A stretch of 64,000 nucleotides of DNA from assembly GCA_021777675.1 (NCBI GenBank), contig JAJYDG010000001.1:4997-68996 (forward strand). Reading direction: 5' to 3'. The notes under the pieces were generated by a model. The model did no database searches. It worked only from the letters and a program-made list of their open reading frames with translations, and was not told the origin of the DNA. This stretch comes from a bacterium. GTDB lineage: Bacteria; Patescibacteriota; Minisyncoccia; Moranbacterales; UBA2206. Position numbers and translations under genes: made by a program. Positions 4,254-50,401 of this stretch are shown piece after piece; position 1 is the stretch's first letter; each line of letters begins with the position of its first letter.

Positions 4254-4748
4254 ATGAAAATCCTCGGCATTGATCCAGGCACGGCCACAACCGGCTGGGC
4301 AATTATTGAAATTAAAGGCGATAAATTTATCCCCCTAGCCTTTGGACACATTAGCACATCAAAAGATAATAATGATGATGAACGCCTTTTAGAAATTTCC
4401 GACGACTTGGTAAAAATAATCCAAAAACATAATCCAGATGAAGCCGCTATTGAAAGTCTTTTCTTTTTCAAAAACCAAAAAACAGTTATCCAAGTCGCTC
4501 AATCCCGCGGAGCAATCCTCTTGACTTTAAGGCAAAATAATGTTAAAGTGTTTAATTACACACCCCTCCAAGTCAAGCAAGCATTAACCGGCTATGGACG
4601 AGCGGAAAAAAAACAAATGCAACTAATGGTAAAAAATATTTTACATTTAAAATCCTTACCCGAGCCTGATGACGTGGCTGATGCGCTAGCAATCGCTGTG
4701 TGCCACGCCAACAGTCGAATTTTAATTAATTTAAAAAATGCGTCATGA
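4254..4748 (+). CDS. ruvC: crossover junction endodeoxyribonuclease RuvC
   Basis: MKILGIDPGTATTGWAIIE… RuvC N-terminal catalytic motif; 164 aa. Confidence 0.9.
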   Translation: MKILGIDPGTATTGWAIIEIKGDKFIPLAFGHISTSKDNNDDERLLEISDDLVKIIQKHNPDEAAIESLFFFKNQKTVIQVAQSRGAILLTLRQNNVKVFNYTPLQVKQALTGYGRAEKKQMQLMVKNILHLKSLPEPDDVADALAIAVCHANSRILINLKNAS

Positions 4749-5410: not shown

Positions 5411-5414
5411 TTTT

Positions 5415-6842: not shown

Positions 6843-7854
6843 GCATATGTTCACAAAATATTTCATAAAATTATCGACTACAAACATAAAAGACTTAAAG
6901 GGTTCTTCTTTTCAAATACTAAAATATGCCCTAAGTAGAGATATTGAAGTATATAGAGTTTTTTCTGACAAAAGAATTCTCGTCCTAAAAAAAGACTCAA
7001 AGCAAGTTTGGATAGACACCTCTCTCACTTCAAAAACAAATCCCGTAGGTATGAGAATAGCAAGAAATAAACATCTCTCAAAGAAATTTTTAAAAAAACT
7101 GGGGTATCCCGTCGCACCAAGCATAAACATGCAAAGTAATGACGACTGCACTCAAATCAGTAATCAAGCAATATCGGAAATAGGCTTTCCATTAGTGGTT
7201 AAGCCGCTAAGAGCTGCTGAGGGAAAGGGCATTACAACTAACATCAATAATAAAGATCTCCTTTTAAATTCGATTCAATCAGCTTTAAAATTTGATAAAA
7301 AAATAATGATCGAAAAACATATTGCCGGTGATTATTACAGAATAACTTATGTGGCAGATGGTGCCTATGCGGTTACAAAAAATCTTCCGGCATATATTAC
7401 TGGAAATAATTCCAACACCATCAGGGAGCTAATTTCAATAGAAAACATTAACAATAAAGAAAGACGCGGAAGGGGAAAATTAAAAAAAATTAAAATTTCA
7501 GAAAAAACTGAAAGATTTTTAGCATCTGCCGGATATACATTTGATTCAATTCTGCCTAAGAATATTAAAATACCTCTTTGCTTCAGCGGATTTGATGGTG
7601 GAGAATATATAAATGTGACAAAAAAAGCTCACCCGTATTTCATAGAAATAAGCAAACAAATATCTGAAAGCCTAGGCTTGCCAATAGTCGGCATTGATAT
7701 TGTCTCACAAGCTATAAATATTCATCCAAAATTAAACAATGGAGTTATAATTGAAATAAATGGCACATACCCAGATATTCTATTTCACAATAAACCAACT
7801 TACGGGGAGGCCACTAGCCTCATCCCTAATCTTATTGATTACTTGTTTTCTTAA
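6829..7854 (+). CDS. ATP-grasp ligase, cyanophycin-synthetase-like ATP-grasp domain (no Mur-ligase domain)
   Basis: …GFPLVVKPLRAAEGKGITTNINNKDLL…EKHIAGDYYRITYVADGAYAVTKNLPAYITGNNSNTIRELISIENINNKERRG…LGLPIVGIDIVSQ… parallels the CphA N-terminal ATP-grasp region; start ambiguous (ATG 6829 or 6847; ORF track used TTG 6826). Confidence 0.65.
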   Translation: MFPNKHMFTKYFIKLSTTNIKDLKGSSFQILKYALSRDIEVYRVFSDKRILVLKKDSKQVWIDTSLTSKTNPVGMRIARNKHLSKKFLKKLGYPVAPSINMQSNDDCTQISNQAISEIGFPLVVKPLRAAEGKGITTNINNKDLLLNSIQSALKFDKKIMIEKHIAGDYYRITYVADGAYAVTKNLPAYITGNNSNTIRELISIENINNKERRGRGKLKKIKISEKTERFLASAGYTFDSILPKNIKIPLCFSGFDGGEYINVTKKAHPYFIEISKQISESLGLPIVGIDIVSQAINIHPKLNNGVIIEINGTYPDILFHNKPTYGEATSLIPNLIDYLFS

Positions 7855-7879
7855 TTTTTTATTTTTAATCACCATTTCT

Positions 7880-8764
7880 ATGAAACTAAAATTTCTAATC
7901 GTTAGTTCGCGAATCAGCCAGCTCTCGCAAGATTTAATTGACGAAATACTAATAAAAGGGCATACTTTTGCATTTTCCACTACGCAAGATTTTATTTTCG
8001 AAATAGAAAATGGTCATTTTAAAGCAAGCACCCCAAATATTCCCAATCTTTTTGATTTTGATATATATATCCTAAGATCATTTTCCAAAAATATGGCCAA
8101 TTCCAAAATATTTACCGAGGAACTTAGATTAAAAAATAAAATAGTAATCGAAGAGTGTATTTCAGATAATTATATCAATAGTAAATTTGCAGAAGGCGTA
8201 CGCCTTACGCGTAGCGGTCTCAACTATCCGATTTCTTATCAAATTCCCAATATAGAAAATATTGAAAAAATTCCTGATAACATTTTTCCAGCAATAGTTA
8301 AACCAACCAATGGTTCCAGGGGTCGCAATATCTCAATAATTGAAAATAAGAAAGACCTTGCTAATTTTATACAAAAAAATCCCGAGGATCTCTTGGTACA
8401 AGAATATTTACCCATTGAATGGGATATTCGAATTTTTGTTGTTGGCAATAAAGTTTTGGGTGGAATAAAAAGATATGTTTTGGAAGGCGATTGTCGTTCC
8501 AACGCATCTTTAGGATCTCAAACTGAGCCTTTCGAAGTTGCGCCAGAAATTGAAGAAATAGCGCTAAAAGCCACAAAAACATTACACTATTCAGTTGCTG
8601 GCGTCGATCTTGCTTGGGCAAAAAATAAGCAAAATTGGTTTGTAATTGAAGTAAACATATCTCCCCAATGGCACGCATTTAAAGCTATAACCAAAATCAA
8701 TCCGGCTATTCATATTATTCAGCACGCGATTGATTTGTATGTCAAGAAAAACGCTCAGAAATAA
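7880..8764 (+). CDS. RimK-family alpha-L-glutamate ligase (ATP-grasp)
   Basis: ORF track 7760-8764; probable start ATG 7880 (MKLKFLIVSS…); …FPAIVKPTNGSRGRNISIIENKKDL…VQEYLPIEWDIRIFVVGNKVLGGIKRYVLEGDCRSNASLGSQTEPFE…AGVDLAW…FVIEVNISPQW typical RimK ATP-grasp core. Confidence 0.7.
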   Translation: MKLKFLIVSSRISQLSQDLIDEILIKGHTFAFSTTQDFIFEIENGHFKASTPNIPNLFDFDIYILRSFSKNMANSKIFTEELRLKNKIVIEECISDNYINSKFAEGVRLTRSGLNYPISYQIPNIENIEKIPDNIFPAIVKPTNGSRGRNISIIENKKDLANFIQKNPEDLLVQEYLPIEWDIRIFVVGNKVLGGIKRYVLEGDCRSNASLGSQTEPFEVAPEIEEIALKATKTLHYSVAGVDLAWAKNKQNWFVIEVNISPQWHAFKAITKINPAIHIIQHAIDLYVKKNAQK

Positions 8765-11531: not shown

Positions 11532-11813
11532 TTATTTCAACTTAATTTTTTCAACCGTATCATCTCCAATTTCTTTATTGATTAGTTTTATAATCTTTCC
11601 TTGATTGGACCAAAGTTCACTAGCCCAAGTCGCACTTTCTGCTTTAATGAAAAGTGTTTTATTGGCAAAATAATCCGGAATAAATTTTTCCATACCCAAA
11701 TTACCAAATTCAATACGAATTATTTTTTTAAACACAAAAAAGATTGTCTCACTATCAACTACAACTTTCTTTTCAAAGCTTTTTTTATTTAGGATTTCTT
11801 TTAGCGCTCTCAT
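11532..11813 (-). CDS. DUF721 / DciA-like protein downstream of dnaN
   Basis: 93-aa protein immediately 3' of dnaN on the same strand; DUF721 (DciA) proteins characteristically sit in the dnaA-dnaN-recF neighbourhood; sequence MRALKEILNKK…WASELW… fits this small family. Confidence 0.55.
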   Translation of the reverse strand: MRALKEILNKKSFEKKVVVDSETIFFVFKKIIRIEFGNLGMEKFIPDYFANKTLFIKAESATWASELWSNQGKIIKLINKEIGDDTVEKIKLK

Positions 11814-11823
11814 TTCACTAAAT

Positions 11824-12987
11824 TTAGTTTTTTATTGGCATAACTATATAAGTAAAACCATCAACAAAACTTTTTTTATCCGGAAGCACTTCTTTTAGTG
11901 CCACAGGTGAAGAATCGCTATTTGCCAATAAAGCTAAGTTTTCAGTGGCAATTACATTAATTCCATCTAATAAGTATTTTAAATTAAAAACAATATTCTG
12001 AGACTCTCCATGAGCTTCAAATTTAACTTCTGTTGAGTTTTCACCAGTCTCAGCACTAATTGTATCAATAAAAACGGTCATCGCTTGTGTGTCAATTTTC
12101 AACACAACTTCTCGTGATTTTCCATCAGCAAAAACACTCGCCATTTTTAAAGCGTTTTGTAATATTTTTTTTTCTCCAATAATTGTTGTTTTGTATTTTT
12201 CCGGCATAATATGCTTATATTCCGGATATTTTCCATTAATCAGGCGGGAAACAATCTTAATTCCATCCAGTTCAAAAAAAATCTGGCCATCTTCGATAAA
12301 AACATTTACTAAAACATTATTCTCAAATCCATTGGAAATAATTTTATTTAATTCCAATAATGTATTCAATGGGATAATAATATTACTATTTTTAGCAAAA
12401 AAATCAGCATAATAATTGTCATTAATATTAAACTCTTTCAACATTAAAAAACGTTCAGACAAACGAAACCCATCTGTAGCGGCAAAAGCTATTTTATCCG
12501 CAAAAAAAACAACGTTTACACCGGATAATTCTTGTCTTGCGTCATTATGCGCTACAGAAACAATAATTTTATTAAAAATATCTTTTAATTTCAAAACAGA
12601 AATTCCAAAAACAAAATCAGTATTTTTTTGTGGAATTAAAGGAAATTCATCAGAAGAAAATCCTTTAATATTAGCTTTTGTCAAGCCATTTTTAATTTTA
12701 AGATTATATCCATCAACCTCAATATCAATATTCTCTCCTCCAATAAGATTGGTGGAAAAATTACCAAGAAGCTTAGCTGGAATAGCAATACTTCCTTCTT
12801 TCTCAACTTTCGCTCCTATTTTTATTTTTATACCTATTTCCAAATTTGTCGCAATAATATTTAAAAAACCTTTTTCCGCTTCCAATAATATATTATTTAA
12901 AATCGGTAAAGTGTTTTGTTTTGAAACAATATGTTCAGCGTTGTTTATGGCTTTTTTAAAATTTTCTTGGGTACAAGTTAATTTCAT
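11824..12987 (-). CDS. dnaN: DNA polymerase III beta sliding clamp
   Basis: MKLTCTQENFKKAINNAEHIVSKQNTLPILNNILLEAEKGFLNIIATNLE… canonical DnaN N-terminus; 387 aa; downstream of dnaA. Confidence 0.9.
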   Translation of the reverse strand: MKLTCTQENFKKAINNAEHIVSKQNTLPILNNILLEAEKGFLNIIATNLEIGIKIKIGAKVEKEGSIAIPAKLLGNFSTNLIGGENIDIEVDGYNLKIKNGLTKANIKGFSSDEFPLIPQKNTDFVFGISVLKLKDIFNKIIVSVAHNDARQELSGVNVVFFADKIAFAATDGFRLSERFLMLKEFNINDNYYADFFAKNSNIIIPLNTLLELNKIISNGFENNVLVNVFIEDGQIFFELDGIKIVSRLINGKYPEYKHIMPEKYKTTIIGEKKILQNALKMASVFADGKSREVVLKIDTQAMTVFIDTISAETGENSTEVKFEAHGESQNIVFNLKYLLDGINVIATENLALLANSDSSPVALKEVLPDKKSFVDGFTYIVMPIKN

Positions 12988-13262
12988 ATGAGTAGAGTGA
13001 TTAATTAAATTATTTATAAATATATAAAATTGATATTACTATTACTATAAAATAGATAGTTGTGGATAAATAGATATTTTATTTTTAAATGGTTGATTTA
13101 ACTTTTTTTATCTTGTGGATAATTTATGTTTTATTTGAAATTGATGCGTGGATAATTTTATGTGATGAATTTATTTTAATTTATTTTGACAGGGAATTAA
13201 CAGTATATAATATTAATTTTTGATGTTTTTACAGGGTTTTTAAATAGGATATTAACAGGTTA
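12988..13262. other. probable oriC: AT-rich dnaA-dnaN intergenic region with DnaA boxes
   Basis: perfect DnaA boxes TTATCCACA (as TGTGGATAA) at 13061-13069 and 13114-13122, a 8/9 box at 13147-13155 (CGTGGATAA), plus extremely AT-rich stretch 13010-13060 (candidate DUE). Confidence 0.6.
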
Positions 13263-14675
13263 TCAGACTATTTTATATAATTGTTCTTGTATGGTGATTA
13301 TTTCTTTTTGTAATTTCTCATCTGTGAGTAATAATTTGGTTATTTTTTCGTATGCATGAATAGCTGTCGTATGATCTCGCCCACCCATTTTTTCTCCAAT
13401 ACCAGGAAAGGAAAATTCCAATTCGTTGCGCAAAAGATACATAACCACTTGCCTTGGTTTAACAATTTCTTTTTTGCGGTTTTTTGCAATCAAATCATCC
13501 GGATTTATTTCATAAAAAGAAGATACGGTTTTGATTATATGTTTATGTGTGACGCCTTTCTTTTTTCCGCTTGAAATTATTTCTGATAATTGTCCGACGG
13601 CAAAATCTTTGGTTATTTCCGCATTAGTTAGTTGAGACGCAACTATTATGCGATTTAAAGCACCTTCTAGTTCTCGAATATTGTTTTTAATGTTTGTGGC
13701 AATAAAGAGCAGTGTTTCGTCGTTGATTTGAATGTTTTCAGTAAAAGCTTTTTTCTTAAGAATGGCTATTCTTGTTTCCAGGTCAGGATTGGAAACATCA
13801 GCAATCATTCCTCCTTCAAAACGCGATCTTAAGCGTTCCTCCAGAATTTGTATTTCTTTGGGTGGTCGGTCGCTACTTAGAACGATTTGTTTGTTAAGCT
13901 GATAAAGATAATTAAAAATATGAAAAAATTCTTCTTGAGTTTTTTCTTTGCCGGAAATAAATTGAATATCATCAATAATGAGAATGTCTATTTTTTGGTA
14001 ATATTCCTTGAATTCATTAATTTTTTGGTTTTGTAGAGCATCAATCAGTGTTGCGGTAAATCTTTCTGATGTAATATATTTTACGCGAAAGTTGGGATCT
14101 CTTTTTAGAATCTCATTACCAATTGATTGGATAAGGTGAGTTTTCCCCAGACCTACTCCGCCATAAAGAAAAAGAGGGTTGTAAATTTTTCCCAAATTTT
14201 GTGAAACAGCAAAGCAAGCGGCGCGAGCTAATTCATTATTTCCTCCAACGACAAAGTTTTCGAAAGTGTATTTTGGATTAAGGTTATTTTCAATGTTTAT
14301 CTGTTGAATTGGCTGGGTGGAATAAGTGGGATTTATAACAGTAGTCTTTTGGTTTTGTGTGATTTGATGTTGTTTTTGTGGGGCAACAATAGCATCAACC
14401 ATCGCTTCTCTGCGCAAAACAGTGTCTTTTGGTGTTGCGATAACGCAAGAAATTGAGCGAATGTCGTTTTGTAGGTTCTTTAAGGAATGTAAAATGTGGG
14501 AATTAAATTTGTTTTCTAGCCATTCTTTAGCAAAACCGTTGGGAACGCTAATGGTAATGTGTCCATTTATGTTCGATTGTATGGATGTTTGCTTAAACCA
14601 TGTGATAAAATTAGCTCTAGAAATAGAAAGTTCTATTTCTGAAAGGGCAGCTTGCCACAATTCTTCATTAGTCAT
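13263..14675 (-). CDS. dnaA: chromosomal replication initiator DnaA
   Basis: ORF track 13263-14846; likely start ATG at 14675 (MTNEELWQAALSEIELSISRANFITWF…); Walker A GGVGLGKTHL, DnaA signature and C-terminal DNA-binding domain. Confidence 0.9.
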   Translation of the reverse strand: MTNEELWQAALSEIELSISRANFITWFKQTSIQSNINGHITISVPNGFAKEWLENKFNSHILHSLKNLQNDIRSISCVIATPKDTVLRREAMVDAIVAPQKQHQITQNQKTTVINPTYSTQPIQQINIENNLNPKYTFENFVVGGNNELARAACFAVSQNLGKIYNPLFLYGGVGLGKTHLIQSIGNEILKRDPNFRVKYITSERFTATLIDALQNQKINEFKEYYQKIDILIIDDIQFISGKEKTQEEFFHIFNYLYQLNKQIVLSSDRPPKEIQILEERLRSRFEGGMIADVSNPDLETRIAILKKKAFTENIQINDETLLFIATNIKNNIRELEGALNRIIVASQLTNAEITKDFAVGQLSEIISSGKKKGVTHKHIIKTVSSFYEINPDDLIAKNRKKEIVKPRQVVMYLLRNELEFSFPGIGEKMGGRDHTTAIHAYEKITKLLLTDEKLQKEIITIQEQLYKIV

Positions 14676-14894
14676 TTTGTTTAATAAAAGAATTAGCGTT
14701 TTAATTTGTCCCCTTGAGAAAAAGTATAGCATAAGAAAAAAATAAATAATAAGTTGATAGCGGATAATATTGTGTATAAGCTGTGGATTGGTGTGGATAA
14801 TCGTATTTATTCCAAGGTGGCAGGTTTTAATGTTAGTGCTTGACAAAAAAAATGGCTATGCTAGACTTTTCAGTCAATATTAATTATCTAATAA
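14676..14894. promoter_or_regulatory. dnaA upstream region with DnaA box(es) (autoregulation / origin flank)
   Basis: perfect DnaA box TGTGGATAA at 14792-14800 and a degenerate copy (CTGTGGATT) at 14781-14789 upstream of the dnaA start. Confidence 0.45.
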
Positions 14895-24536: not shown

Positions 24537-26114
24537 TTATTCTTTGTTCTTGAAAATAATTCCGGCCAGACTTTCGCTTTTTTGTTGAGCCAAGTCAACA
24601 ATACCGGATACTTTTTGAAAAATTTTCATCGCGTCCACTGAATCAATCTTTTCTCCTATCTTCAATATATTTTTCCCATTTTCAATATCAAATTCGCAAG
24701 TCAGGAATGTTTTTAAGCCGGAAAGCCCATATTTTTTAGTAAAATCTAACAATTGTTCTTTTTGTCCTTGCGTACTCAACTCAAAAGCGGCAGCGGCCAA
24801 CCACTGTTGTTCCTTCCAACTAAGATTATGAATTCCAATGCCACTTTTTTGGGAAAATTCATCACTTATTTTTTGAAGATAATTATAATCACCCAATAAA
24901 CTTACCCGTTCGGCATATTGCTCCGGCGATTCTTCTCTTTTTTTCTGGCTTTCCTTTGTTCGCAACCACGGACGAATCCTCTCGTTCATTTCTCTCTTAT
25001 TCAAAAATGTTCTGGCGGAAAGTTCACTACTCGAACTGTTGGGAAATTTTTCTTGCACTTCCGCTTTTTTTTCTTCTTTTTCTTTTTCGCTCAGTAATGG
25101 AAAGATATATTTTATTTCCTCTTTACCATCAGTTCGCACTACTACTCCCACCGTTTCTCGATCAAGCAGAACGGTTTTGATGTTTTCTGTCGGATATTTT
25201 TTGCCTTCAAAGATAAAGCCCTCTCTGCCCAGATAATATTTAACCCCGCCATGGGAGAAAAAATTAGCTTCTCCTTTTTTCATTTCCTTTTTTTCTCGCA
25301 ACAATTCTCCGCTCGACCCGGTTGCTATCACCCCAAAATCATCCATACGCAACATTCCATTAGCCAAAAGATGCGGGCATTCTTTCCGTAAAAATCGATG
25401 GATGGAAGATTTCATTTCCGTGAAAGAAAAATTGCCCATATTCTCCTCCAGCCAATCGATACTTAACGGACGATAAGCCTCTCTTTTTTTATCAAATACC
25501 AATAATTTTCCGTCCTTATTCCGCTTCGCGCCATATTCCCGATAAAGCTTGGTAGTTAAAGCAAATTCTTTCGGATTTATTTCCTCTCCATTTTTTGCTT
25601 GAAATTTAAAATTATTCCAAGATGTTTTCTTACTGATATCCCAAAAATTCAAATGATATTTTTTGGCCTTTAGCTTTTCTTCATTAAAAGATTCTTCTAT
25701 GCTATCCGGAACATTGAAAAGTGGCGTGGCGACAATATCTTTTCCCCCCTCACTTTTTTGCTGATACTCCTGCGGAGTTACGACATACAAATCACGCAAA
25801 GCATCAAATAATTCTTGCTTGCTTGATCGTAAAGTAAGCCTAGCGATTTCACTTGCATCCGCTTTTTTTGTCTTTTTTTCATCTTTCAAGGAAATTTCTA
25901 CCAAAAAACGTTCCACATCAAAAACAGCTAATTCATTTTCAAATTTCAAAATTCCGTCTTTTTCCAAAGCGGAAAAAACTTTTTCCCTCAAAGAATTGTT
26001 TTCTTTGTTTTCTAATCTATTTCCTGACACATTGAAATCAACTTTTTCATCCGCCTTTTTCTTGCTACCCACTGGCGTTTTGAAATAACCCTCTCCTTCT
26101 TCATATTTTCGCAT
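24537..26114 (-). CDS. large hypothetical protein (525 aa), no recognisable domain
   Basis: long uninterrupted ORF with balanced, Lys/Glu-rich composition typical of this genome; co-oriented with and 72 nt upstream of the GNAT-like gene. Confidence 0.6.
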   Translation of the reverse strand: MRKYEEGEGYFKTPVGSKKKADEKVDFNVSGNRLENKENNSLREKVFSALEKDGILKFENELAVFDVERFLVEISLKDEKKTKKADASEIARLTLRSSKQELFDALRDLYVVTPQEYQQKSEGGKDIVATPLFNVPDSIEESFNEEKLKAKKYHLNFWDISKKTSWNNFKFQAKNGEEINPKEFALTTKLYREYGAKRNKDGKLLVFDKKREAYRPLSIDWLEENMGNFSFTEMKSSIHRFLRKECPHLLANGMLRMDDFGVIATGSSGELLREKKEMKKGEANFFSHGGVKYYLGREGFIFEGKKYPTENIKTVLLDRETVGVVVRTDGKEEIKYIFPLLSEKEKEEKKAEVQEKFPNSSSSELSARTFLNKREMNERIRPWLRTKESQKKREESPEQYAERVSLLGDYNYLQKISDEFSQKSGIGIHNLSWKEQQWLAAAAFELSTQGQKEQLLDFTKKYGLSGLKTFLTCEFDIENGKNILKIGEKIDSVDAMKIFQKVSGIVDLAQQKSESLAGIIFKNKE

Positions 26115-26168
26115 AGTTCTAATCTTAATCTACTTATAGCCAATACTCATATTTTATACTATTTTAGG

Positions 26169-26210
26169 AAAAATAAAAAAGCCGTACATTGGGTGGTGAC
26201 CAAATGACGG
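26169..26210 (-). terminator. intrinsic terminator-like hairpin for a minus-strand transcript (GCCGTCAT…ATGTACGGC then U-run on minus strand)
   Basis: imperfect 8-9 bp stem 26181-26210 followed on the minus strand by TTTTTTATTTTT (A-run 26169-26180 on plus). Confidence 0.45.
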
Positions 26211-26653
26211 CTTTACGTTCGTGGTTGCGAACTGATTTTGCCCATCCTATTGCCGGGACCAGCTAGCAGGGATTCACGCGTTTACCGACTGCTTTGCGAC
26301 CGTTTGAGACTAGCAAAAAAACTAGTGAGTCTAGGATTTTAGACCCCAACCGGGTCAAACTTGACTGGTTGCCATCGGCAAGGGCAACCTTCTGGCCCCG
26401 AGAGGGGACCAGAAGGATGATCCTGCATCGTATGTTCTACGATGCAGGACACTTCCTTTCACAAATGTGAAAGAAAATGCCCTTCTTACTACATACTCAT
26501 GCTGGGGATCCTCCCAGCGAAGGCACAGACATTCGCCTGTACCTTCAATGACACCACTCCTAAAAAGGAATGGCATCAAAAAATTTAATTCTTCGGAGAT
26601 CCACATTGATCCTCCCCTGCCCGACTTACGCTTCGGGTCCGAGCGTTTTTTTT
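26181..26653. ncRNA. candidate large structured RNA (unidentified): GC-rich (~50%) run of near-perfect hairpins bounded by outward-facing hairpin+U-run structures
   Basis: hairpins seen directly: CCTTCTGGCCCC-GAGA-GGGGaCCAGAAGG (26396-26424), TCCTGCATCGTA-TGTTC-TACGATGCAGGA (26430-26458), TTTCAC-AAAT-GTGAAA, GCTGGG-GATCCT-CCCAGC, GAAGG…CCTTC; right end hairpin + TTTTTTTT at 26622-26653 (plus strand); strand undetermined. Confidence 0.35.
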
Positions 26654-26895
26654 GATTGTTTTTTCCGATCGCCATTTCAATTTTTGATTTTTTCAAAAAC
26701 TCAAACGGCAACCGGAAATGTAAACAACCTTTTTTAAACAACTTTCTTTCTCAAATCACAAACTATTTTATGATCTGGGATAAAAGCAGGAGAAAGCGCT
26801 TGGTGGCGTGGTGCGCCGTCGGCGTTGCGTGCGCTCTCTCCTCTATTTTGTGGTTGGCCGGTTTTTGTCAAAGACTGGAGCCGGCTTTCTCCGTT

Positions 26896-27330
26896 TTATC
26901 TGATTCCGAGAAAAATCTTCTCGAAATCAGCACAGAAAGGCCTCGGGACATAGTCCCAAGCCTTCCATTGTGCTTCCCAATTACTGGTGCTATTGCACCA
27001 GTAATAAAACTTGGAAAGCGCTTCTTTTTTTGCCACTAGTTCCTCGACCGAGGAACCCATGGCGTCGAGGACTATTTGCATAGCCCTCCCTATATCCGCC
27101 CCGTACGCGTGCGCATACGAGTAGAGAACACTCGAATCATTCCGGATGTTCTCTTCTGGTCTGATCCATATGTGGCCGTTGGCCACAAAATAGATCAATT
27201 TTTCTTCAAATTTTTTTTTGCTCTCACAGAAATCCGTGAGAGCATTTCCATTCCAACCTTCCACTGGATCGCTCCAGTTTCCGGCTGACGCCCTTCCGAG
27301 AAACTCGAAAGGGTTTAATTTTATTTCCAT
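26896..27330 (-). CDS. orphan GC-rich hypothetical protein (145-174 aa) inside the GC-rich block
   Basis: ORF track 26896-27420; internal ATG at 27330 (MEIKLNPFEFLGRASAGNWSDPVEGWNGNALTDF…); non-repetitive, Trp/Tyr-rich protein-like composition unlike the rest of the window; could also be a chance ORF in GC-rich structured DNA. Confidence 0.35.
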   Translation of the reverse strand: MEIKLNPFEFLGRASAGNWSDPVEGWNGNALTDFCESKKKFEEKLIYFVANGHIWIRPEENIRNDSSVLYSYAHAYGADIGRAMQIVLDAMGSSVEELVAKKEALSKFYYWCNSTSNWEAQWKAWDYVPRPFCADFEKIFLGIR

Positions 27331-27378
27331 TTCAACTCCCGTCCCATTTCTACCCCGCCAGACGTAGCGGCTAAAACA

Positions 27379-27550
27379 TTTACCACTAATAAAACTTAGT
27401 GGTATCCGGTTATTGACCATCGGAACCGGAAATTCCTATCCCCATTTTAGCTGGGGAATACTGGGTCAGTTCGCATCATTGCTCGTAATGAGTGGCGAAC
27501 CGAAAACTTATTCCCGGGGGACGAAGCGCTGATCCCCGGGTGTTTTTTTT
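27379..27550 (+). ncRNA. candidate small structured RNA or leader: five consecutive hairpins ending in a strong intrinsic terminator
   Basis: ACCACTAA-N6-TTAGTGGT, TCCGGTT…AACCGGA, CCCCA…TGGGG, GTTCGC[ATCATT…AATGA]…GCGAAC, then CCCGGGGG-N13-CCCCGGG + TTTTTTTT (27513-27550); no downstream plus-strand gene for ~800 nt. Confidence 0.3.
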
Positions 27551-28187
27551 GACTTTTCCCCAGAAAATTCCAGATTAAATGAATCCTAGATATTCGATGT
27601 CCATTATGGACATTAAATGTCTTTGTGCCCGGAATCTTTTGGGAAAAAGCCAAAGTATTTATTTTTTAACGAACTCTACGAACTAGCTCTTCTTTTCTAA
27701 TTCACAAAAATGCCAGTGATAATTTACATTTAATTTTCGAAGAAGAGAGATTTTGACGAAAAATCAAATTATATTCTCATCACTAGCATTTTTCTAAAGA
27801 TGATTCATAATCATCTCTAGCTCTCTTCTTTTTATTCGTAATCAAATGCACTTCTAGACTCTCTTCTATTGGAAAGCCTGCTTCCGATTTCAAAAATAAA
27901 TTGAAACCGGAGACCACTTTCCATCTCGCGATGGCTCGCGAAATGTGAAACGAATTTGTTTGCCTTGTCCTAGCCAACCAATCCATAACCCTACAAAAAA
28001 TTAATGGATTGCCTATCTCTCTCTACTAAGACTTTGGTATGCCTTTTCGTTTCTTGTGCCATTCAATGATCCTTTTCGTCTTGAACATCTTTTTTTCTTT
28101 CGAAAATTAGAAAATTTCAGGACAATCGTGATACATTATTTGATTGAAAGAACTTTGTTTTGTTAAGTGAAGATTCTCTCTTCTTCG

Positions 28188-28208
28188 ATTGCCAATCTCT
28201 CTGGCAAT
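28188..28208. promoter_or_regulatory. palindromic candidate operator ATTGCCA-N7-TGGCAAT upstream of the TrmB-like regulator gene
   Basis: 7-bp perfect inverted repeat with 7-nt spacer, ~80 nt upstream of the -35 element. Confidence 0.3.
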
Positions 28209-28290
28209 TCATCTTAACAAGCAAGTATAGCATCTTTTAAGCTAACTGTCAATTATACTCGACTTATTTTGCTTATTTTTATTTTATAAA

Positions 28291-28319
28291 TCCTAAATTG
28301 TTGACAATTTAAGCCATAT
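28291..28319 (+). promoter_or_regulatory. sigma70-type promoter: TTGACA - 17 nt - TATACT
   Basis: consensus -35, 17-nt spacer, near-consensus -10; ~60 nt upstream of the 28379 start codon. Confidence 0.6.
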
Positions 28320-28378
28320 TTGCTATACTTAACTTGTCGTCGCTTTTATTCGACATCTAGGCTTTTTTAGTCAATATC

Positions 28379-29131
28379 ATGAACCTATCTGACCAACTAA
28401 TCCAATTCGGGCTCAACAGAAACCAAGCAGAGACTTATCTGGCACTTTTGGAATTGGGACAATCCGGCGTTATTCCGCTTGCCAAAAAGACCGGCATCAA
28501 GCGGACGACACTCTATGACATCTTGGTGGAACTCGAGAAAAAACAACTGGTAGCGCAGACAAAAAAGGCCACAAGAAGGCTTTTTATTGCGCTTGAGCCA
28601 TCGAATCTGGAGAAGGTTTTAGAAGAAAAACGCGAAAGACTAGAAAGTTTGATGCCGGCACTAAAAGCCCTGGTCAACACGACCGGAACCAAACCCGTAA
28701 TCCGCTACTATGAAGGCTTGGAAGGCATCAAGGAAGTCTATCGTGACACCTTGAGTTATAGCGGAGAACTTTTGGCCTTTGTGGCGGAAAACATCTTTGA
28801 CAAGCTAGGCAAGGAGTTTGCTGATGAGTATAAAACCAAGCGCAAAAAGGCTCAGATTGGCGTGCGCATTTTGGTGCCGGAAACACCGGAACTCAAAAAA
28901 GAGCTGGTTACGGTCAAGGAAGACTTGCGCATCTATCGCTTTGTCCCGAAAGAAAAATATCCCTTCACAATGGAAATGAATCTTTATGGCAACAAAATGG
29001 CGCTAATGTCCTTTCAAGAAGAATTGGGCGTGATCATTGAAAGCAATGAAATCAGCCAAAACCTGCGCTATCTTTTTGAGCTAGCATGGACTGGTGCTAA
29101 ACCAAAAGGGGAAGAGGAAAATTATTGGTAA
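28379..29131 (+). CDS. TrmB-family (sugar-responsive) transcriptional regulator
   Basis: N-terminal winged HTH …LNRNQAETYLALLELGQSGVIPLAKKTGIKRTTLYDILVELEKKQLV… typical of HTH_TrmB, with a C-terminal TrmB-like effector domain; GC higher than genome background. Confidence 0.7.
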   Translation: MNLSDQLIQFGLNRNQAETYLALLELGQSGVIPLAKKTGIKRTTLYDILVELEKKQLVAQTKKATRRLFIALEPSNLEKVLEEKRERLESLMPALKALVNTTGTKPVIRYYEGLEGIKEVYRDTLSYSGELLAFVAENIFDKLGKEFADEYKTKRKKAQIGVRILVPETPELKKELVTVKEDLRIYRFVPKEKYPFTMEMNLYGNKMALMSFQEELGVIIESNEISQNLRYLFELAWTGAKPKGEEENYW

Positions 29132-38657: not shown

Positions 38658-41105
38658 ATGGAAATGAAGATTGAACTGGAAAATATCCAGTCGCAAGAAA
38701 TAACAAAAGAAATCCAACAATCATATTTGGATTATGCGATGAGCGTAATTGTTGCACGTGCGCTTCCCGATGTACGCGATGGAATGAAGCCGGTGCATAG
38801 AAGAATTCTTTATTCTATGTGGAATACTGGTCTTCGCGCTAATGCAAAGTTTCGAAAATCAGCAACGGTGGTTGGAGAGGTTTTGGGAAAATACCATCCA
38901 CATGGTGATGCGGCTGTTTATGAATCAATGGTGCGCATGGCGCAAGATTTTTCTTTACGCTACCCCCTGGTTAAAGGGCAAGGAAACTTTGGCTCGATGG
39001 ATGGAGATGGTGCGGCAGCTTATCGTTACACGGAAGCCAAATTATCTGCGATTGCTGAAGAAATGCTTATTGATATTGAAAAAAATACCGTGGATTTTGT
39101 TCCTAATTTTGACGGACAACACAAAGAACCGACCGTTTTACCATCCAATCTCCCGCAATTACTCCTCAATGGATCAATGGGTATTGCTGTTGGCATGGCT
39201 ACTAATATTCCGCCACATAATCTCGGTGAATTGGTTGATGGTATTAATCATCTAATTGATAATCCCGATGCAACAATCGAAGATTTGTGTGAATTTGTAA
39301 AAGGTCCTGATTTTCCAACCGGTGGAATTATTTACAATAAAAAAGATATCATTGAAGCCTATAAAACCGGTCGCGGAAAGATTTTAACTCGTGCTAAAGC
39401 TGATATTCATGAAACTAAGGCTGGCGCTTTTCAGATTATTATCACTGAAATGACTTACGCTACAAACAAATCAACCATGATTGAAAGAATGGCGGATCTT
39501 GTTAAGGAAGGGAAAATTGTGGGTATCCGTGATATTCGTGATGAGTCAGATAAGGATGGTGTTCGTCTTGTAATTGAGCTGAAAAAAGATGCCTATCCGC
39601 AAAAAGTGCTTAATAAATTATTTGAATTAACGGATCTTCAAAAAAATTTCGGAGTCAATATGTTGGCTTTGGTTGATGGAATCGAGCCAACTGTTTTGAA
39701 TATAAAATCCATTTTTGAGTACTACATAAAACATCGCAAAGAAGTTATTACTCGTCGTACCAAATTTGATTTGGAAAAAGCCAAAGATCGTGCGCATATT
39801 TTGGAAGGTCTAAAAAAAGCGTTGGATTTTATTGATGCTGTTATTGATACGATCAGAAAATCAAAAACAAAAGAAGAAGCGCATATAAATCTAATAAAAA
39901 GATTTGAATTTTCCGAAAAACAAGCAACAGCCATATTGGAAATGCGCTTGCAAACATTGGCGGGACTTGAAAGAAAGAAAATCGAAGATGAATTAGCTGA
40001 AAAATTAAAACTAATCGCCCAATTAGAAGCAATTCTTAAAAGTGAAAAAAAGATTTTTTCTATAATCAAGGATGAACTTACGCGAATCAAAGAAAAGTTT
40101 GGAGATGAAAGACGTACGAGAATAATAAAATCGGGACTAACCGAGTTTCGTCAAGAAGATTTAATACCAAACGAAGAGGCAATCATAACAATTTCAAAGG
40201 AAGGCTATATTAAACGAATGAATCCGACCGTCTATAAAGTTCAAAAACGTGGAGGAAAGGGCGTGATTGGTGCTTCAATTAAAGAAGGAGATGAAGTAGA
40301 AAAATTGCTTGGTGTGATGACGCATGATAATCTTTTGTTTTTTACTAATAATGGAAAAGTATTTCAAACAAAATCTTATGAAATACCGGAATCATCTCGC
40401 ACATCCAAGGGCCAATCAATTGTAAATTTTTTGCAACTTTCTCAAGAAGAAAAAGTAACCGCCATTATTGCATTCAATAAGGATGATAGCTATAAGTATC
40501 TCTTTATGGCGACCGAAATGGGTACAGTTAAAAAAACCACACTTGAAGAATTTGAAAATGTTCGTCGCTCTGGTCTTATTGCCATTAAGCTTGACAAGGG
40601 AGATGCTTTACGCTGGGTTTGTGCAACAACAGGAACGGATGAGGTGCTCATTTCCAGTGCGCTTGGACAAGCAATTCATTTCAAAGAAAGTGATGTGAGA
40701 TCGATGGGTCGTTCAGCAACGGGTGTGCGTGGAATCAAATTGAAAAAAGCAGATGCAGTTATTGGAATGGATATTTTGCCTAAAGGACAAAAAGGAAATC
40801 AGTTGCTTGTTATTACTGAAAATGGTTATGGAAAAAGATCAGAAATTAAATATTATAAAATTCAAAAGCGTGGCGGATCCGGAATAAAAACCGCTTCAAT
40901 TACTTCGAAAACCGGAAAATTAGTTGGAGCTAATATTGTTAATTCTGAAAATGATCTTGAAGATGATTTAATTCTAACTTCAGAAAAAGGTCAAATTATT
41001 CGCATTCCGCTGAAAAGCATTTCTTTGCTTGGTCGCGCAACGCAAGGAGTGAGAGTGATGCGACCACAAACAGGAGGTAGGGTTTCTGCCACCACTAAGC
41101 TATAA
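38658..41105 (+). CDS. gyrA: DNA gyrase subunit A
   Basis: …[31 protein letters not shown]… active-site region and C-terminal beta-pinwheel repeats; 815 aa. Confidence 0.95.
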
Positions 41106-41241: not shown

Positions 41242-42897
41242 TTATTTTATGTTTTTAGAATTTTTTATTTTATTCATCGGCTCAATATGAAATAATTTCC
41301 ATAAAAACAAAATAAACAAAACCAATCCAATGATTCCCCATTCCGACCAAATCAAGAGAAAGATGTTATGTACCGGTTGATATTGCCAAGTCTCTAAATT
41401 GGGAAATGTTTTTGTGGCGTTTGTAATAAATTGTCCCTCACCTATCCCAATAAGAGGGCTATTTAAAATGGTTTGCTTTGAAATAAAAAAATAGAGGTAT
41501 CTTTCATTGAGTGATTTGATGAATAGTGTGTAAAAGTCCACTTTAAGAAAGTGTAAGATGAAAAAGGCCGTTCCAAGTAATGTTATTAGTAATAATGTGA
41601 GTTTAAAAGGCTTTATTTTTGCCATGATAACACTTTTATATTTAGCGGACAGTGTTTCACGTGAAACATTTACATATAAAATGGCTAACAATAAAGCTAG
41701 TATTGCTGATTTTGAAAAACTTAATATAAGTGCAAATATTTCTATTACTAAGATGATGTAAATAAAAAAAGATGTTTTTCTTTGTTTCACGTGAAACAAA
41801 TTTCTATACAGGATTGTTAGCATAATTAAGAAAAATAAAAAACCTGCAAAAATATTTGGATGAGGAAATAAACCATATGCACGAATTAAGGGATGCTGAT
41901 TAACGATTATTTTGGCCACGCCGGCAATTTTTTCACTGATTAAGCTTTCTTTTAGCCAAAATAATCCCAAAGAACTTTGTCTGAAAAATTGAATTATTCC
42001 AATAATTGCTTGCGATGTTCCCATAAAGATAAATAAATTTATAAAAGCGAAAAATGGAATAGTATTGTATTTAGTTATTCTATTGCTATTTAACAATTGA
42101 TTATTTGAATCTTTAGTGGGTATTTTTAGGTAGGAACCATTGGCGTTTTTGTTTTTAGCATATAAAAAATTGCCAAAAAGAACACCCATTGTCATCCAAA
42201 ACAGAATCTGACCTTGCCAAATGTCCCATAAATAATGGTCAAATAGGCCAATAAATAAAAGCCCAAATAAGATTGCGCGAAAAAACAAATGTATTTTTGA
42301 GATAATTAATTTTTCTTGCTCGAAATTTTCTAAACTTGTTTCACGTGAAACAAGTTGGTTTTTATGCTCATTTAGATTGATTGGAAACTCTTGTTTATTC
42401 GTGAGGATGGATTTTTTCTTGATAGACATCCAGCAATAAGGAAAAAATCTTAGTGTTACATAAAGAAAAAGAAGATATAATTCAAAGAATTTACCTGATC
42501 TGTAGAGACTGATTATTTTGTTTTCAGACCAAAAAGCAGAAAATAGTGACCAGAAAAACAAAACTAATGGAATAAAAAAAATGTTTAAATTAAGAGCGTT
42601 ATTTCTTTTTTTCCAATAAGTAAAAAAAGACGATGCTTTTATTGACAAATATGACTTTTCATTGTTTAATATTAAAACGATCCATGGTAATATTGTGAAA
42701 AATAAAAACAAATCAGAAAGGTAGATGTATGTCCCATTATATTCATTGAAAGTGTTTTTTATGGGAAGAAACCAAACAACCTTTCGTATTTCGAGAGAAA
42801 ATGTTAATAAAAAAAGATAAAAAAAACATAAATCAATTGGACAATTCCATTTTGTCCTTTTTTGTTTTTTTTGAGTAAAAGAAAAATTGAAAAGCAT
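41242..42897 (-). CDS. O-antigen ligase-like (Wzy_C family) polytopic membrane protein carrying three in-frame palindromic insertions
   Basis: ~12 predicted TM helices, large loop typical of O-antigen polymerase/ligase family; 551 aa. Confidence 0.65.
   Translation of the reverse strand: MLFNFSFTQKKQKRTKWNCPIDLCFFYLFLLTFSLEIRKVVWFLPIKNTFNEYNGTYIYLSDLFLFFTILPWIVLILNNEKSYLSIKASSFFTYWKKRNNALNLNIFFIPLVLFFWSLFSAFWSENKIISLYRSGKFFELYLLFLYVTLRFFPYCWMSIKKKSILTNKQEFPINLNEHKNQLVSRETSLENFEQEKLIISKIHLFFRAILFGLLFIGLFDHYLWDIWQGQILFWMTMGVLFGNFLYAKNKNANGSYLKIPTKDSNNQLLNSNRITKYNTIPFFAFINLFIFMGTSQAIIGIIQFFRQSSLGLFWLKESLISEKIAGVAKIIVNQHPLIRAYGLFPHPNIFAGFLFFLIMLTILYRNLFHVKQRKTSFFIYIILVIEIFALILSFSKSAILALLLAILYVNVSRETLSAKYKSVIMAKIKPFKLTLLLITLLGTAFFILHFLKVDFYTLFIKSLNERYLYFFISKQTILNSPLIGIGEGQFITNATKTFPNLETWQYQPVHNIFLLIWSEWGIIGLVLFILFLWKLFHIEPMNKIKNSKNIK
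41653..41668. repeat. palindromic element copy 1 (TGTTTCACGTGAAACA)
   Basis: perfect 16-bp palindrome inside the 41242-42897 gene. Confidence 0.8.
41781..41800. repeat. palindromic element copy 2 (TTTGTTTCACGTGAAACAAA)
   Basis: perfect 20-bp palindrome inside the same gene. Confidence 0.8.
42333..42356. repeat. palindromic element copy 3 (AACTTGTTTCACGTGAAACAAGTT)
   Basis: perfect 24-bp palindrome inside the same gene, in a different reading frame from copies 1 and 2. Confidence 0.8.
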
Positions 42898-49465: not shown

Positions 49466-50401
49466 CTATTTTTTTCTTTTTGAATGAAATGTTTGGTGTA
49501 TTTCTTTTAATCGCTTGTTGGTAACGTGTGTATAAACTTGCGTCGTTGTAATAGATGAATGTCCAAGCATTGCTTGCACACTACGGATATCCGCTCCATT
49601 GGCAAGCAAATCTGTGGCAAAAGAATGCCTTAGTGTGTGAGGATGAACGTCTTTTATTATCCCTGCTTTTTTGGCATATTTTTTTACTATTCTTTGAATT
49701 GATCTTGAGGTTAATCTTAAGTTATCCACAGTTTTTTCACCAGCTTTTTTCTTAAGTTGAGACAATCCAGTATAATCTCTTATGAAAAGCGCTTGATCAA
49801 AATCAGTTCTTTTTTCTAAGTAATTTTTAATAGCAACGGCTGCATCATCGGAGATGAAAACCACGCGCAATTTATCTCCTTTTCCGCGTACACTTAATTC
49901 GCGTGATTTTAAATCTATTTTTTCTTTGTTGATATTTACCAATTCGGAAACACGGAGACCGGCGGAAAACAGTAGTTCTAATATTGCTAAATCGCGCAAT
50001 GATTTGATATCCTTTCCATTTGCTTCAGCCAAAATTCGTTCAACTTCTTCAATTGTCAAAAATTCTACTTCTCGTGATTCGTTTTTGCTGATTTCAATTT
50101 TTTCCGCTTGTAATGACGATATGTCTTTCTTGGCTAAAAATTTCAAAAAACTGCGTATGGCGATAATATAAAAACCTTGGGTAACTCTTTTCAGTTTTTT
50201 TTTATCTTTAGCTTCATATCGATTAAGATAAATTCTAAAATTTCCGATAAGCTCGGCTGTTATTTGTTCAGGAGCGTCTATTTTTGCCCAATCCAAAAAT
50301 CGATCGAGATAGTGATCGTAATTTTCAATGGTTTTTTGAGAGCGACCTCGTTCAATTTCCATATATTCTAAAAAACGGGTCTTTAATTTTCTGATTTGCA
50401 T
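49466..50401 (-). CDS. xerC: tyrosine site-specific recombinase XerC/XerD family
   Basis: N-terminal SAM-like domain (…FLEYMEIERGRSQKTIENYDHYLDRFLDW…) and catalytic R…HxxR…Y (…HPHTLRHSFATDLLANGADIRSVQAMLGHSSITTTQVYTHV…). Confidence 0.85.
   Translation of the reverse strand: MQIRKLKTRFLEYMEIERGRSQKTIENYDHYLDRFLDWAKIDAPEQITAELIGNFRIYLNRYEAKDKKKLKRVTQGFYIIAIRSFLKFLAKKDISSLQAEKIEISKNESREVEFLTIEEVERILAEANGKDIKSLRDLAILELLFSAGLRVSELVNINKEKIDLKSRELSVRGKGDKLRVVFISDDAAVAIKNYLEKRTDFDQALFIRDYTGLSQLKKKAGEKTVDNLRLTSRSIQRIVKKYAKKAGIIKDVHPHTLRHSFATDLLANGADIRSVQAMLGHSSITTTQVYTHVTNKRLKEIHQTFHSKRKK

What the first reader, a model, noticed from the sequence alone, without database searches (positions are those of the whole stretch)
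41653..42356. Three copies of a perfect 16-24 bp palindrome (core GTTTCACGTGAAAC) inserted in-frame, in different frames, inside one O-antigen-ligase-like gene
TGTTTCACGTGAAACA (41653-41668), TTTGTTTCACGTGAAACAAA (41781-41800) and AACTTGTTTCACGTGAAACAAGTT (42333-42356) are perfect palindromes sharing a 14-bp core. They occur nowhere else in the 64 kb and are all inside one membrane-protein gene, translated as …VSRET… twice and …FHVKQ… once. Three perfect copies in 700 bp of coding sequence is far from chance in an AT-rich genome. It suggests a tiny palindromic mobile element (MITE-like or REP-like) that tolerates in-frame insertion into loops of a membrane protein. Alternatively the copies could be a protein-binding or recombination site set used for phase or antigenic variation of a surface-polysaccharide enzyme, or a recurrent restriction/HNH-endonuclease target.
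Basis: seen in the sequence. Interest (0 to 1): 0.6.

Follow-up and report, generated by a model that had tools for sequence, protein, structure and literature searches.

The report
Chromosome centromere (parS) sites inside a gene
The three palindromes are textbook parS sites, the DNA "centromere" that the ParB protein grips to segregate bacterial chromosomes; what is unusual is that in this bacterial lineage (Moranbacteria) the local parS cluster is written in-frame into the loops of one membrane-protein gene.

Summary
Three exact copies of TGTTTCACGTGAAACA lie at 41653, 41783 and 42337, inside a Wzy_C/O-antigen-ligase-like gene (41242-42897, minus strand). No other copy occurs in the 64 kb, even allowing 3 mismatches.

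This 16-mer is the canonical chromosomal parS, the ParB/Spo0J binding site (consensus TGTTNCACGTGAAACA). The sites lie 27-29 kb from dnaA, dnaN and a DnaA-box cluster, so they are origin-proximal, as expected for parS.

The source is a Candidatus Moranbacteria (Patescibacteria/CPR) genome. In 80 related genomes the orthologous gene carries 508 parS-like sites (0-16 per gene), against 6 in 1.1 Mb of flanking DNA. The sites are read in all three frames (CSTWN, FHVEQ/H, VPRGT) and sit in loops between conserved helices. Codon usage shows the constraint is on DNA: 162 of 164 VPRGT peptides use exactly the parS codons. Variants that would create an in-frame TGA never occur in that frame.

The mobile-element, phase-variation and restriction-target readings are not supported. 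The kind of element is well known. The organisation, an array confined to one ORF across a lineage, appears undescribed in the literature I could search.

Main gap: no ParB gene was found in the 84 kb I could inspect, and the rest of the genome could not be searched.

The parts
41653..41668 (.). parS site 1: TGTTTCACGTGAAACA, 16/16 match to the canonical parS. Encodes VSRET (aa 411-415) on the minus strand, in the loop after helix 396-410.
   Evidence: exact match; parS identity; frame and loop
41783..41798 (.). parS site 2: TGTTTCACGTGAAACA, within the 20-bp perfect palindrome 41781-41800. Encodes FHVKQ (aa 368-372) in the turn between helices 347-368 and 376-392. This is the most widely shared slot among orthologues.
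42337..42352 (.). parS site 3: TGTTTCACGTGAAACA, within the 24-bp perfect palindrome 42333-42356. Encodes VSRET (aa 183-187) in the long hydrophilic loop aa 169-185.
41242..42897 (-). Host gene: 551-aa polytopic membrane protein of the Wzy_C / O-antigen-ligase family. Its orthologues carry the parS array throughout Moranbacteria.
   Evidence: Pfam PF04932; orthologues and arrays; AlphaFold2 pTM 0.84
41279..41294 (-). Possible decayed fourth site (inference only): TATTTCATATTGAGCC, 9/16 to parS. It encodes ...KLFHIE... at the C-terminal slot where many orthologues have KLFHVEQ encoded by an intact parS.
   Evidence: C-terminal slot used in 15-35 genomes; sequence. At the DNA level alone it cannot be told from chance.
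13061..13155 (-). Context: cluster of three DnaA boxes (TTATCCACA twice, TTATCCACG once) in the dnaA-dnaN intergenic region, a candidate oriC about 28.5 kb from the parS cluster.
13263..14846 (-). Context: dnaA (dnaN lies at 11824-12987, minus strand). It shows that the window is origin-proximal.
38658..41105 (+). Context: gyrA, convergent with the host gene. It is the downstream, convergent neighbour in 37 of the 40 related loci where gyrA was detected.

Best explanation
The three palindromes are chromosomal parS sites, the centromere-like loading sites of the ParABS/SMC chromosome-segregation system, embedded in the coding sequence of a Wzy_C-family membrane-protein gene near the replication origin. 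The mechanism is inferred from what is established for parS elsewhere. A ParB dimer recognises each 16-bp palindrome through its helix-turn-helix. On binding CTP it closes into a sliding clamp that leaves parS and spreads over the neighbouring kilobases. Three sites within 700 bp act as a high-flux loading zone. The resulting ParB-DNA complex marks the origin region for segregation, through ParA if one is present, and for SMC loading. What is shown here: the sequence identity to parS, the origin-proximal position, the restriction to this one gene, strong DNA-level purifying selection across about 80 species, and the fitting of the motif into protein loops and permitted reading frames so that the gene stays translatable. 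What is inferred: that a Moranbacterial ParB binds these sites. The likely reason for the coding location is that parS was already in this gene in the common ancestor, the loops of this protein tolerate arbitrary short peptides, and intergenic space in these small genomes is scarce, so new copies accumulate there.
For: (1) The match to parS is 16/16. All 20 listed of the 27 papers that contain the string TGTTTCACGTGAAACA are ParB/parS/Noc or replication-origin papers. The review PMC7022226 gives the consensus as TGTTNCACGTGAAACA and lists this exact 16-mer for Hyphomonas and the CC/GG variant for Pseudomonas. (2) The window has three copies and no other within 3 mismatches. (3) The location is origin-proximal: dnaA, dnaN and a DnaA-box cluster lie at 11.8-14.8 kb, 27-29 kb away. 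(4) In 80 species-level relatives there are 508 sites in this gene against 6 in 1.11 Mb of flanks, roughly 560-fold denser. 119 of 120 metagenomic homologues carry the encoded peptides: 746 in total against 0.35 in shuffles. (5) Selection acts on DNA: 162/164 VPRGT, 106/108 CSTWN and 24/27 VSRET peptides are encoded by exactly the parS bases, where 0.3% is expected for VPRGT from background codon usage. All three frames are used (115/144/244). The TGA-creating variant never occurs in frame 0 (0/60 against 115/442, p = 9e-8). (6) Intragenic parS is normal: 9 of 10 sites in P. aeruginosa lie in coding sequence.
Against: No ParB (PF02195) or ParA gene was found in the window, in the 10 kb beyond each end, or within 10 kb of the array in 80 relatives. 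The rest of the genome could not be searched, so the cognate binding protein is assumed and not shown. There are no binding data. Whether further parS sites exist elsewhere in the chromosome is unknown.
Confidence: 0.9

Rival explanations
1. A miniature palindromic mobile element (MITE, REP, or like the Rickettsia palindromic elements) that inserts in-frame into coding DNA and spreads selfishly.
For: Copy number varies from 0 to 16 between orthologues, and the extra copies lie in indel-rich loops. The flanks are also conserved, giving a palindromic unit of about 22 bp. In orthologues, identical GC-rich inserts recur at several sites and in both orientations, which implies some copying process.
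Against: The motif is confined to one gene: 508 sites against 6 in 1.1 Mb, and none elsewhere in the 64-kb window. The window's sites 2 and 3 occupy slots shared by 51-53 of 81 genomes, so they are inherited and not recently inserted. The unit is only 16-24 bp, and the flank logo shows no sign of an element body or target-site duplication. The sequence is exactly the ParB binding site.
Confidence: 0.03
2. Recombination sites for phase or antigenic variation of a surface-polysaccharide enzyme, through inversion or deletion between the identical palindromes.
For: There are three identical repeats in a surface-related gene. A tyrosine recombinase gene lies 7 kb away (49466-50401).
Against: 16 contigs from independent assemblies encode the identical 551-aa protein, and five assemblies have identical gene DNA with all three sites. 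The recombinase has an ordinary integrase architecture (N-terminal SAM-like plus catalytic domains), is not adjacent, and was detected within 10 kb of the gene in only 7 of the 80 related loci. The sites are conserved across about 80 species in a fixed arrangement of slots.
Confidence: 0.02
3. Operator sites for some other DNA-binding protein (a transcription factor or a Noc-like protein) that regulates this gene, in a lineage that lacks ParB.
For: No ParB gene was located in the DNA available. The flanking bases (AAW...WTT) are conserved beyond the 16-bp core.
Against: The identity to canonical parS is 16/16 in both common variants, across hundreds of sites. Up to 16 copies spread through an ORF is not an operator layout. 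The position is origin-proximal.
Confidence: 0.03
4. A conserved peptide motif of the protein (VSRET/FHVKQ), with the DNA palindrome incidental; or a restriction-modification or HNH target centred on CACGTG.
For: The peptides recur at conserved positions in the protein.
Against: The three recurrent peptides are the three reading frames of a single palindrome. Synonymous codons are essentially never used: 162/164 against 0.3% expected. Conservation covers 16-22 bp, not 6.
Confidence: 0.01

Closest known systems
Chromosomal parS sites of the ParABS system (B. subtilis Spo0J sites, Lin & Grossman 1998; consensus TGTTNCACGTGAAACA, reviewed in PMC7022226)
   Same: The 16-bp palindrome is identical. 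The position is origin-proximal. There are several copies. The sites lie inside coding sequence, as most do in P. aeruginosa (9 of 10; PMC4368675). The CC/GG variant found in the orthologues is the Pseudomonas/Myxococcus form.
   Different: Here every detectable copy in about 84 kb lies in one ORF. In relatives up to 16 copies are packed into that same ORF in all three frames, at conserved loop positions. No parAB operon lies nearby, although parAB is usually origin-proximal.
Dense origin-proximal parS clusters (M. xanthus 22 sites, S. coelicolor 21, C. glutamicum 10; PMC7022226 Table 1)
   Same: Many parS copies are concentrated near the origin to build one large ParB complex.
   Different: From my own recollection, not checked here, those clusters extend over many kilobases and several genes. 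Here the array spans about 0.7-2 kb within a single gene, and that gene is the same one across a whole candidate phylum.
Rickettsia palindromic elements (RPEs; Ogata et al. 2000; cited from memory, not checked here)
   Same: Palindromic repeated DNA sits in-frame inside protein-coding genes, is translated, and is tolerated in surface-exposed or loop regions.
   Different: As I recall them, RPEs are roughly 100-150 bp, dispersed through many unrelated genes, and regarded as selfish DNA. The present repeats are 16-24 bp, confined to one gene, and identical to a known protein-binding site.
Noc-binding sites (NBS) of the ParB paralogue Noc (one search lists the Noc papers; the NBS sequence and its distribution are from memory)
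   Same: A 16-bp palindrome is bound by a ParB-family CTPase that spreads from its nucleation site.
   Different: The NBS sequence differs from parS, and NBS sites are spread around the chromosome away from the terminus, not clustered. The present sites match parS and not NBS.

Membership tests
Chromosomal parS (ParABS centromere) | 16-bp palindrome matching the consensus TGTTNCACGTGAAACA | tested here: met
   Three 16/16 matches. Consensus and exact-sequence precedents come from PMC7022226. The string is used in the ParB/parS literature.
Chromosomal parS (ParABS centromere) | Located in the origin-proximal part of the chromosome | tested here: met
   dnaN, dnaA and a DnaA-box cluster lie at 11.8-14.8 kb. 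The sites at 41.6-42.4 kb are 27-29 kb away. Cumulative GC skew rises steadily from about 38 kb onward.
Chromosomal parS (ParABS centromere) | Rare in the genome, far above chance locally, and absent from the surrounding DNA | tested here: met
   0.18 expected against 3 observed, with none elsewhere in 64 kb. In relatives, 6 sites in 1.11 Mb of flanks. Whole-genome counts could not be made.
Chromosomal parS (ParABS centromere) | Conserved as DNA, independently of the coding content | tested here: met
   All three frames are used. 162/164 VPRGT peptides use exactly the parS codons, against 0.3% expected. The stop-creating variant is excluded from frame 0.
Chromosomal parS (ParABS centromere) | A cognate ParB (ParBc domain plus HTH) is encoded by the same genome | tested here: inconclusive
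   None was found in the window, in the 10 kb beyond each end, or within 10 kb of the array in 80 relatives (Pfam scans; neighbour tables; motif scan; tblastn with Spo0J and Soj).
Chromosomal parS (ParABS centromere) | ParB binds and spreads from the site (ChIP, EMSA, CTP-dependent loading) | not testable with these tools
   This needs an experiment.
MITE / REP / RPE-like mobile palindromic repeat | Dispersed in many unrelated loci of the genome | tested here: not met
   All window copies are in one gene. 508 sites lie in the orthologous gene against 6 in 1.11 Mb of flanks.
MITE / REP / RPE-like mobile palindromic repeat | Presence/absence polymorphism at otherwise colinear positions, seen as alignment gaps in orthologues | tested here: inconclusive
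   Not met for the window's three copies, which sit in aligned, shared slots. Additional copies in orthologues do lie in indel-rich loops.
Phase-variable invertible or deletable segment | Alternative arrangements in the population and an adjacent dedicated recombinase | tested here: not met
   16 contigs encode the identical protein, and 5 assemblies have identical DNA. The nearest recombinase is an ordinary tyrosine integrase 7 kb away, detected near the gene in only 7 of 80 related loci.
Wzy_C / O-antigen ligase family (host gene) | Match to PF04932 above the curated threshold, and a polytopic helical membrane fold | tested here: met
   49.7 bits against a 31.7 cut-off. AlphaFold2 gives pTM 0.84 with many long helices. 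Hydropathy agrees. The enzymatic function was not tested.

The most novel reading that the evidence does not exclude
In Moranbacteria the origin-proximal parS array lies inside one polytopic membrane-protein gene, with up to 16 sites in three frames. That part is shown here, within the +-10 kb examined around the gene. The novel reading is that this placement is adaptive and not just tolerated. One possibility is that coupled transcription, translation and membrane insertion of the encoded protein tethers the ParB-parS complex to the membrane in tiny cells with no parA gene detected near the array. A second possibility is that the GC-rich hairpin inserts found exactly at the dyad of many sites in relatives are a new kind of parS-targeting mini-element, or a switch that silences individual sites.
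Probability: 0.1. Interest if true: 0.75.

Novelty: new member of a known kind. Interest (0 to 1): 0.4.

Why it matters
For the window itself, the value is annotation. The result marks the likely centromere and places the origin region of an uncultured CPR bacterium. It also removes a false lead, since the palindromes are not a mobile element and not a phase-variation system. Beyond the window, the lineage-wide pattern is a clean natural example of two codes sharing the same DNA. A protein-binding palindrome is held invariant while it is read in three frames as loop peptides, and the variant that would create a stop codon is avoided in the one frame where it matters. That could interest people who study ParB loading (how many sites, and how closely packed), dual-coding constraints, and chromosome segregation in ultra-small bacteria, where I found almost nothing published. 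The recurrent peptides CSTWN, FHVEQ and VPRGT are also a simple marker for finding these arrays in metagenomes.

Tried and rejected
(1) ParB and ParA. I ran Pfam on essentially all ORFs of 110 aa or more in the window, again at relaxed E-values on the unannotated ones, and looked 10 kb beyond each window end. None of these found ParB or ParA. I ran no further search on a Bacillus ParB query. Only the best 120 hits are listed and they would be close relatives of the query, so the search would say nothing about this genome.
(2) Literature. No paper links parS or ParB with Patescibacteria or Parcubacteria in any informative way, or with O-antigen ligase genes. Livny et al. 2007 is not held in the library.
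(3) Rfam on the whole window found only four tRNAs, so there is no RNA explanation for the palindromes.
(4) I considered and rejected a peptide-motif explanation (codon test), a restriction-site explanation (conservation spans 16-22 bp), a MITE (distribution) and phase variation (identical assemblies).
(5) The first regex for split sites produced 45 hits outside the gene. A stricter version left 4, all AT-rich and non-palindromic, so I treat them as chance.

Full report
OBSERVATION. The 14-bp core GTTTCACGTGAAAC occurs at 41654, 41784 and 42338 and nowhere else in the window with up to 2 mismatches. Chance expectation is 0.18, and none of 100 dinucleotide-preserving shuffles reached three matches. 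The 16-mer TGTTTCACGTGAAACA matches exactly at 41653, 41783 and 42337, with nothing else at up to 3 mismatches. Copies 2 and 3 extend to perfect palindromes of 20 and 24 bp. All three lie in a 551-aa ORF on the minus strand (41242-42897) that matches Pfam Wzy_C (O-antigen ligase) above its curated cut-off. They are read as VSRET, FHVKQ and VSRET.

WHAT THE SEQUENCE IS. TGTTTCACGTGAAACA is the canonical chromosomal parS, the binding site of ParB/Spo0J. A full-text search for the exact string returned 27 papers. The 20 listed are all about ParB, parS, the ParB paralogue Noc, or replication origins. The review PMC7022226 gives the conserved chromosomal parS as "mainly TGTTNCACGTGAAACA". Its Table 1 lists this exact 16-mer for Hyphomonas neptunium, GTTTCACGTGAAAC for Mycobacterium smegmatis, and the variant TGTTCCACGTGGAACA for Pseudomonas. 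The same table gives 2 to 22 sites per chromosome, mostly in the origin domain. In P. aeruginosa nine of ten parS sites lie within coding sequences (PMC4368675), so an intragenic position is ordinary in itself.

CONTEXT IN THE WINDOW. The window is origin-proximal. dnaN (11824-12987) and dnaA (13263-14846) are present. Three DnaA boxes cluster in the dnaA-dnaN spacer (13061-13155) and two more lie at the 5' end of dnaA. The parS cluster is 27-29 kb from there. Cumulative GC skew has minima near 13 kb and 37 kb and rises steadily from 38 kb onward. gyrA (38658-41105) is the convergent neighbour. Exact-protein look-ups place the locus in Candidatus Moranbacteria MAGs (GCA_027355905.1 and others; names; taxonomy).

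COMPARATIVE EVIDENCE. An alignment with twelve orthologues (29-66% identity in the search table) shows that the window's three peptides sit in aligned columns, where the orthologues have VPRGT or FHVEQ/H. The orthologues carry many more copies of three recurrent peptides: CSTWN, (L/M)FHVE(Q/H) and (N/I)VPRGT. These are the three reading frames of TGTTCCACGTGGAACA. I fetched the gene with 10-kb flanks from 80 species-level genomes and counted sites matching TGTTNCACGTGNAACA with at most one mismatch. There are 508 in the gene (0-16 per gene) and 6 in 1.11 Mb of flanks, which is 3.0 against 0.005 per kb. Only the most distant homologues have none. In an independent set of 120 metagenomic homologues, 119 carry the encoded peptides, with a median of 6 per protein and 746 in total, against 0.35 in shuffled sequences. 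The sites fall into a few discrete slots between conserved blocks. The window's sites at aa 368 and 411 occupy the most widely shared slots, each used in 51-53 of 81 genomes. The closest relative (66% amino-acid identity, about 79% nucleotide identity) has the same three sites plus one more. The window's copies are therefore inherited and are not recent insertions.

DNA-LEVEL OR PROTEIN-LEVEL SELECTION. I searched for the peptides first and then read the DNA that encodes them. 162 of 164 VPRGT peptides are encoded by exactly GTTCCACGTGGAACA, where background codon usage in the same genes predicts 0.3%. 106 of 108 CSTWN and 24 of 27 VSRET peptides behave the same way. 503 of 511 sites lie inside the ORF, in all three frames (115/144/244). 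The variant with A at position 12 would put TGA in frame 0, and it is never found in that frame (0 of 60, against 115 of 442 for the G variant; Fisher p = 9e-8). This explains why the window, which uses the TTTCAC/GTGAAA variant, shows only the VSRET and FHVKQ readings. The gene is kept open and the palindrome is kept intact, so both codes are under selection.

TOPOLOGY. Hydropathy analysis and an AlphaFold2 model built on 48 sequences (pTM 0.84) show a polytopic helical membrane protein. The three peptides lie in low-confidence linkers: the coil at aa 169-185, the turn at 369-375 between helices 347-368 and 376-392, and the loop at 411-417.

MECHANISM. What is shown here: sequence identity to parS, origin proximity, confinement to this gene, and DNA-level conservation. 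What is inferred from established ParABS biology: ParB dimers nucleate at each palindrome, bind CTP, close into sliding clamps and spread over the neighbouring kilobases (spreading of 16 kb is reported for V. cholerae ParB1 in PMC7022226). The resulting complex marks the origin region for segregation and SMC loading. Several sites within 0.7 kb would raise the loading rate. The coding location is most simply explained by inheritance from an ancestor in which parS already lay in this gene, by loops that tolerate short arbitrary peptides, and by the scarcity of intergenic DNA in these small genomes.

RIVALS. A MITE/REP/RPE-like element fails on distribution (one gene only), on shared ancient slots, and on the lack of an element body. 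Phase variation fails because 16 contigs from independent assemblies encode the identical protein and five assemblies have identical gene DNA. The only recombinase nearby is an ordinary tyrosine integrase 7 kb away. A peptide motif fails the codon test. A restriction target fails because conservation spans 16-22 bp. A different DNA-binding protein cannot be formally excluded while ParB remains unlocated, but it is unlikely given 16/16 identity in both standard variants.

THE GAP. I could not find ParB or ParA in the window, in the 10 kb beyond either end, or within 10 kb of the array in any of the 80 relatives. The tools do not allow a search of the rest of this genome. parAB need not be next to parS, and S. 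pneumoniae has ParB without ParA. Still, the cognate protein is assumed here and not shown.

COMPARISON AND NOVELTY. As a kind of element this is well known: canonical parS, origin-proximal, intragenic. The organisation appears to be undescribed in the literature I could search. Every detectable site in the region lies within one ORF, that ORF is the same one across a candidate phylum, and it holds up to 16 copies read in three frames. I file the window's feature as a new member of a known kind and give it moderate interest for the lineage-wide architecture.

SIDE OBSERVATIONS. In orthologues, though not in the window, 41 sites in 27 genomes are split exactly at the dyad by GC-rich inserts. 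These inserts are about 70% GC in genomes of about 35% GC. Typical lengths are 21, 30, 36, 42 or 45 nt, and 37 of 41 are multiples of three. The same insert classes recur across species, at several slots and in both orientations. They occupy the same slots as intact sites in other genomes. As single-stranded DNA they fold into long hairpins that continue the parS arms. ParB binding to half-sites is documented. What these inserts are remains unexplained. The conserved unit is also longer than 16 bp (AAW-parS-WTT): only 26% of exact sites show no palindromic extension, whereas I estimate roughly 70% would by chance in AT-rich DNA.

Noticed in passing
Orthologous loci only, e.g. L030:2631-2664, L007:11474-11517, L010:10374-10417, L012:10324-10367, L017:10636-10694, L031:1850-1905: 'Split' parS sites: GC-rich, hairpin-forming inserts of 21-45 nt (about 70% GC in roughly 35% GC genomes; 37 of 41 are multiples of 3) sit exactly at the parS dyad. 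They are translated in frame (VP-PSCAKASAGK-RGT, FH-LPRRQAG-VEH, CST-PACRSLSGGW-WN). The same insert classes recur across species, at several slots and in both orientations. There are 41 cases in 27 genomes and none in the window. Their origin (palindrome growth, gene conversion or a parS-targeting mini-element) and their effect on ParB are unknown.
   Followed up: partly
503 sites in L006-L085 plus the window (flank logo); in the window, 41781-41800 and 42333-42356: The conserved unit is longer than the 16-bp parS. Positions -3 to -1 are A (0.61/0.78/0.90) and positions +2 to +4 after the site are T (0.86/0.69/0.55), giving a palindrome of about 22 bp, AAW-parS-WTT. Only 26% of exact sites have no palindromic extension. 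This could reflect extra ParB contacts or the way new copies arise.
   Followed up: partly
window 41279-41294 (minus strand): A possible decayed fourth parS at the C-terminal slot. TATTTCATATTGAGCC (9/16) encodes ...WKLFHIE..., where many orthologues have WKLFHVEQ encoded by an intact site.
   Followed up: partly
all loci; window variant TGTTTCACGTGAAACA: Stop-codon constraint on the motif. Variants with A at position 12 would read TGA in the CSTWN frame, and they are never found in that frame (0/60 against 115/442). This shows that TGA is read as a stop in this lineage and that the host gene is kept translatable.
   Followed up: yes
window about 11532-11813 (minus strand), mapped from L086:20359-20640: A small dciA gene (PF05258) sits directly downstream of dnaN, next to the candidate oriC.
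   Followed up: no
window about 26000-28400: A stretch with raised GC (0.40-0.43 against about 0.35). It holds only short overlapping ORFs with no significant Pfam hit, and it gives no Rfam match. What it contains is unknown.
   Followed up: no
L088:15043-21527 (about 4-10 kb beyond the window's right end): A run of unannotated genes ending in PrgI-like and TraC-like genes, which suggests a type IV secretion or conjugation-like module just outside the window.
   Followed up: no
window 4745-8764: A cluster of a 7TM_transglut membrane protein with three ATP-grasp genes (ATPgrasp_ST, a D-Ala-D-Ala-ligase-like gene, and a RimK-like gene), upstream of a class A penicillin-binding protein.
   Followed up: no
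L006-L085 relative to the host gene: The neighbourhood is conserved. gyrA was detected in 40 of 80 loci and is downstream and convergent in 37 of them. cca (49 loci), an MBL-fold gene (46), an S1-domain gene (35) and tilS (31) also lie within 10 kb. dnaA lies within 10 kb in only one locus.
   Followed up: partly
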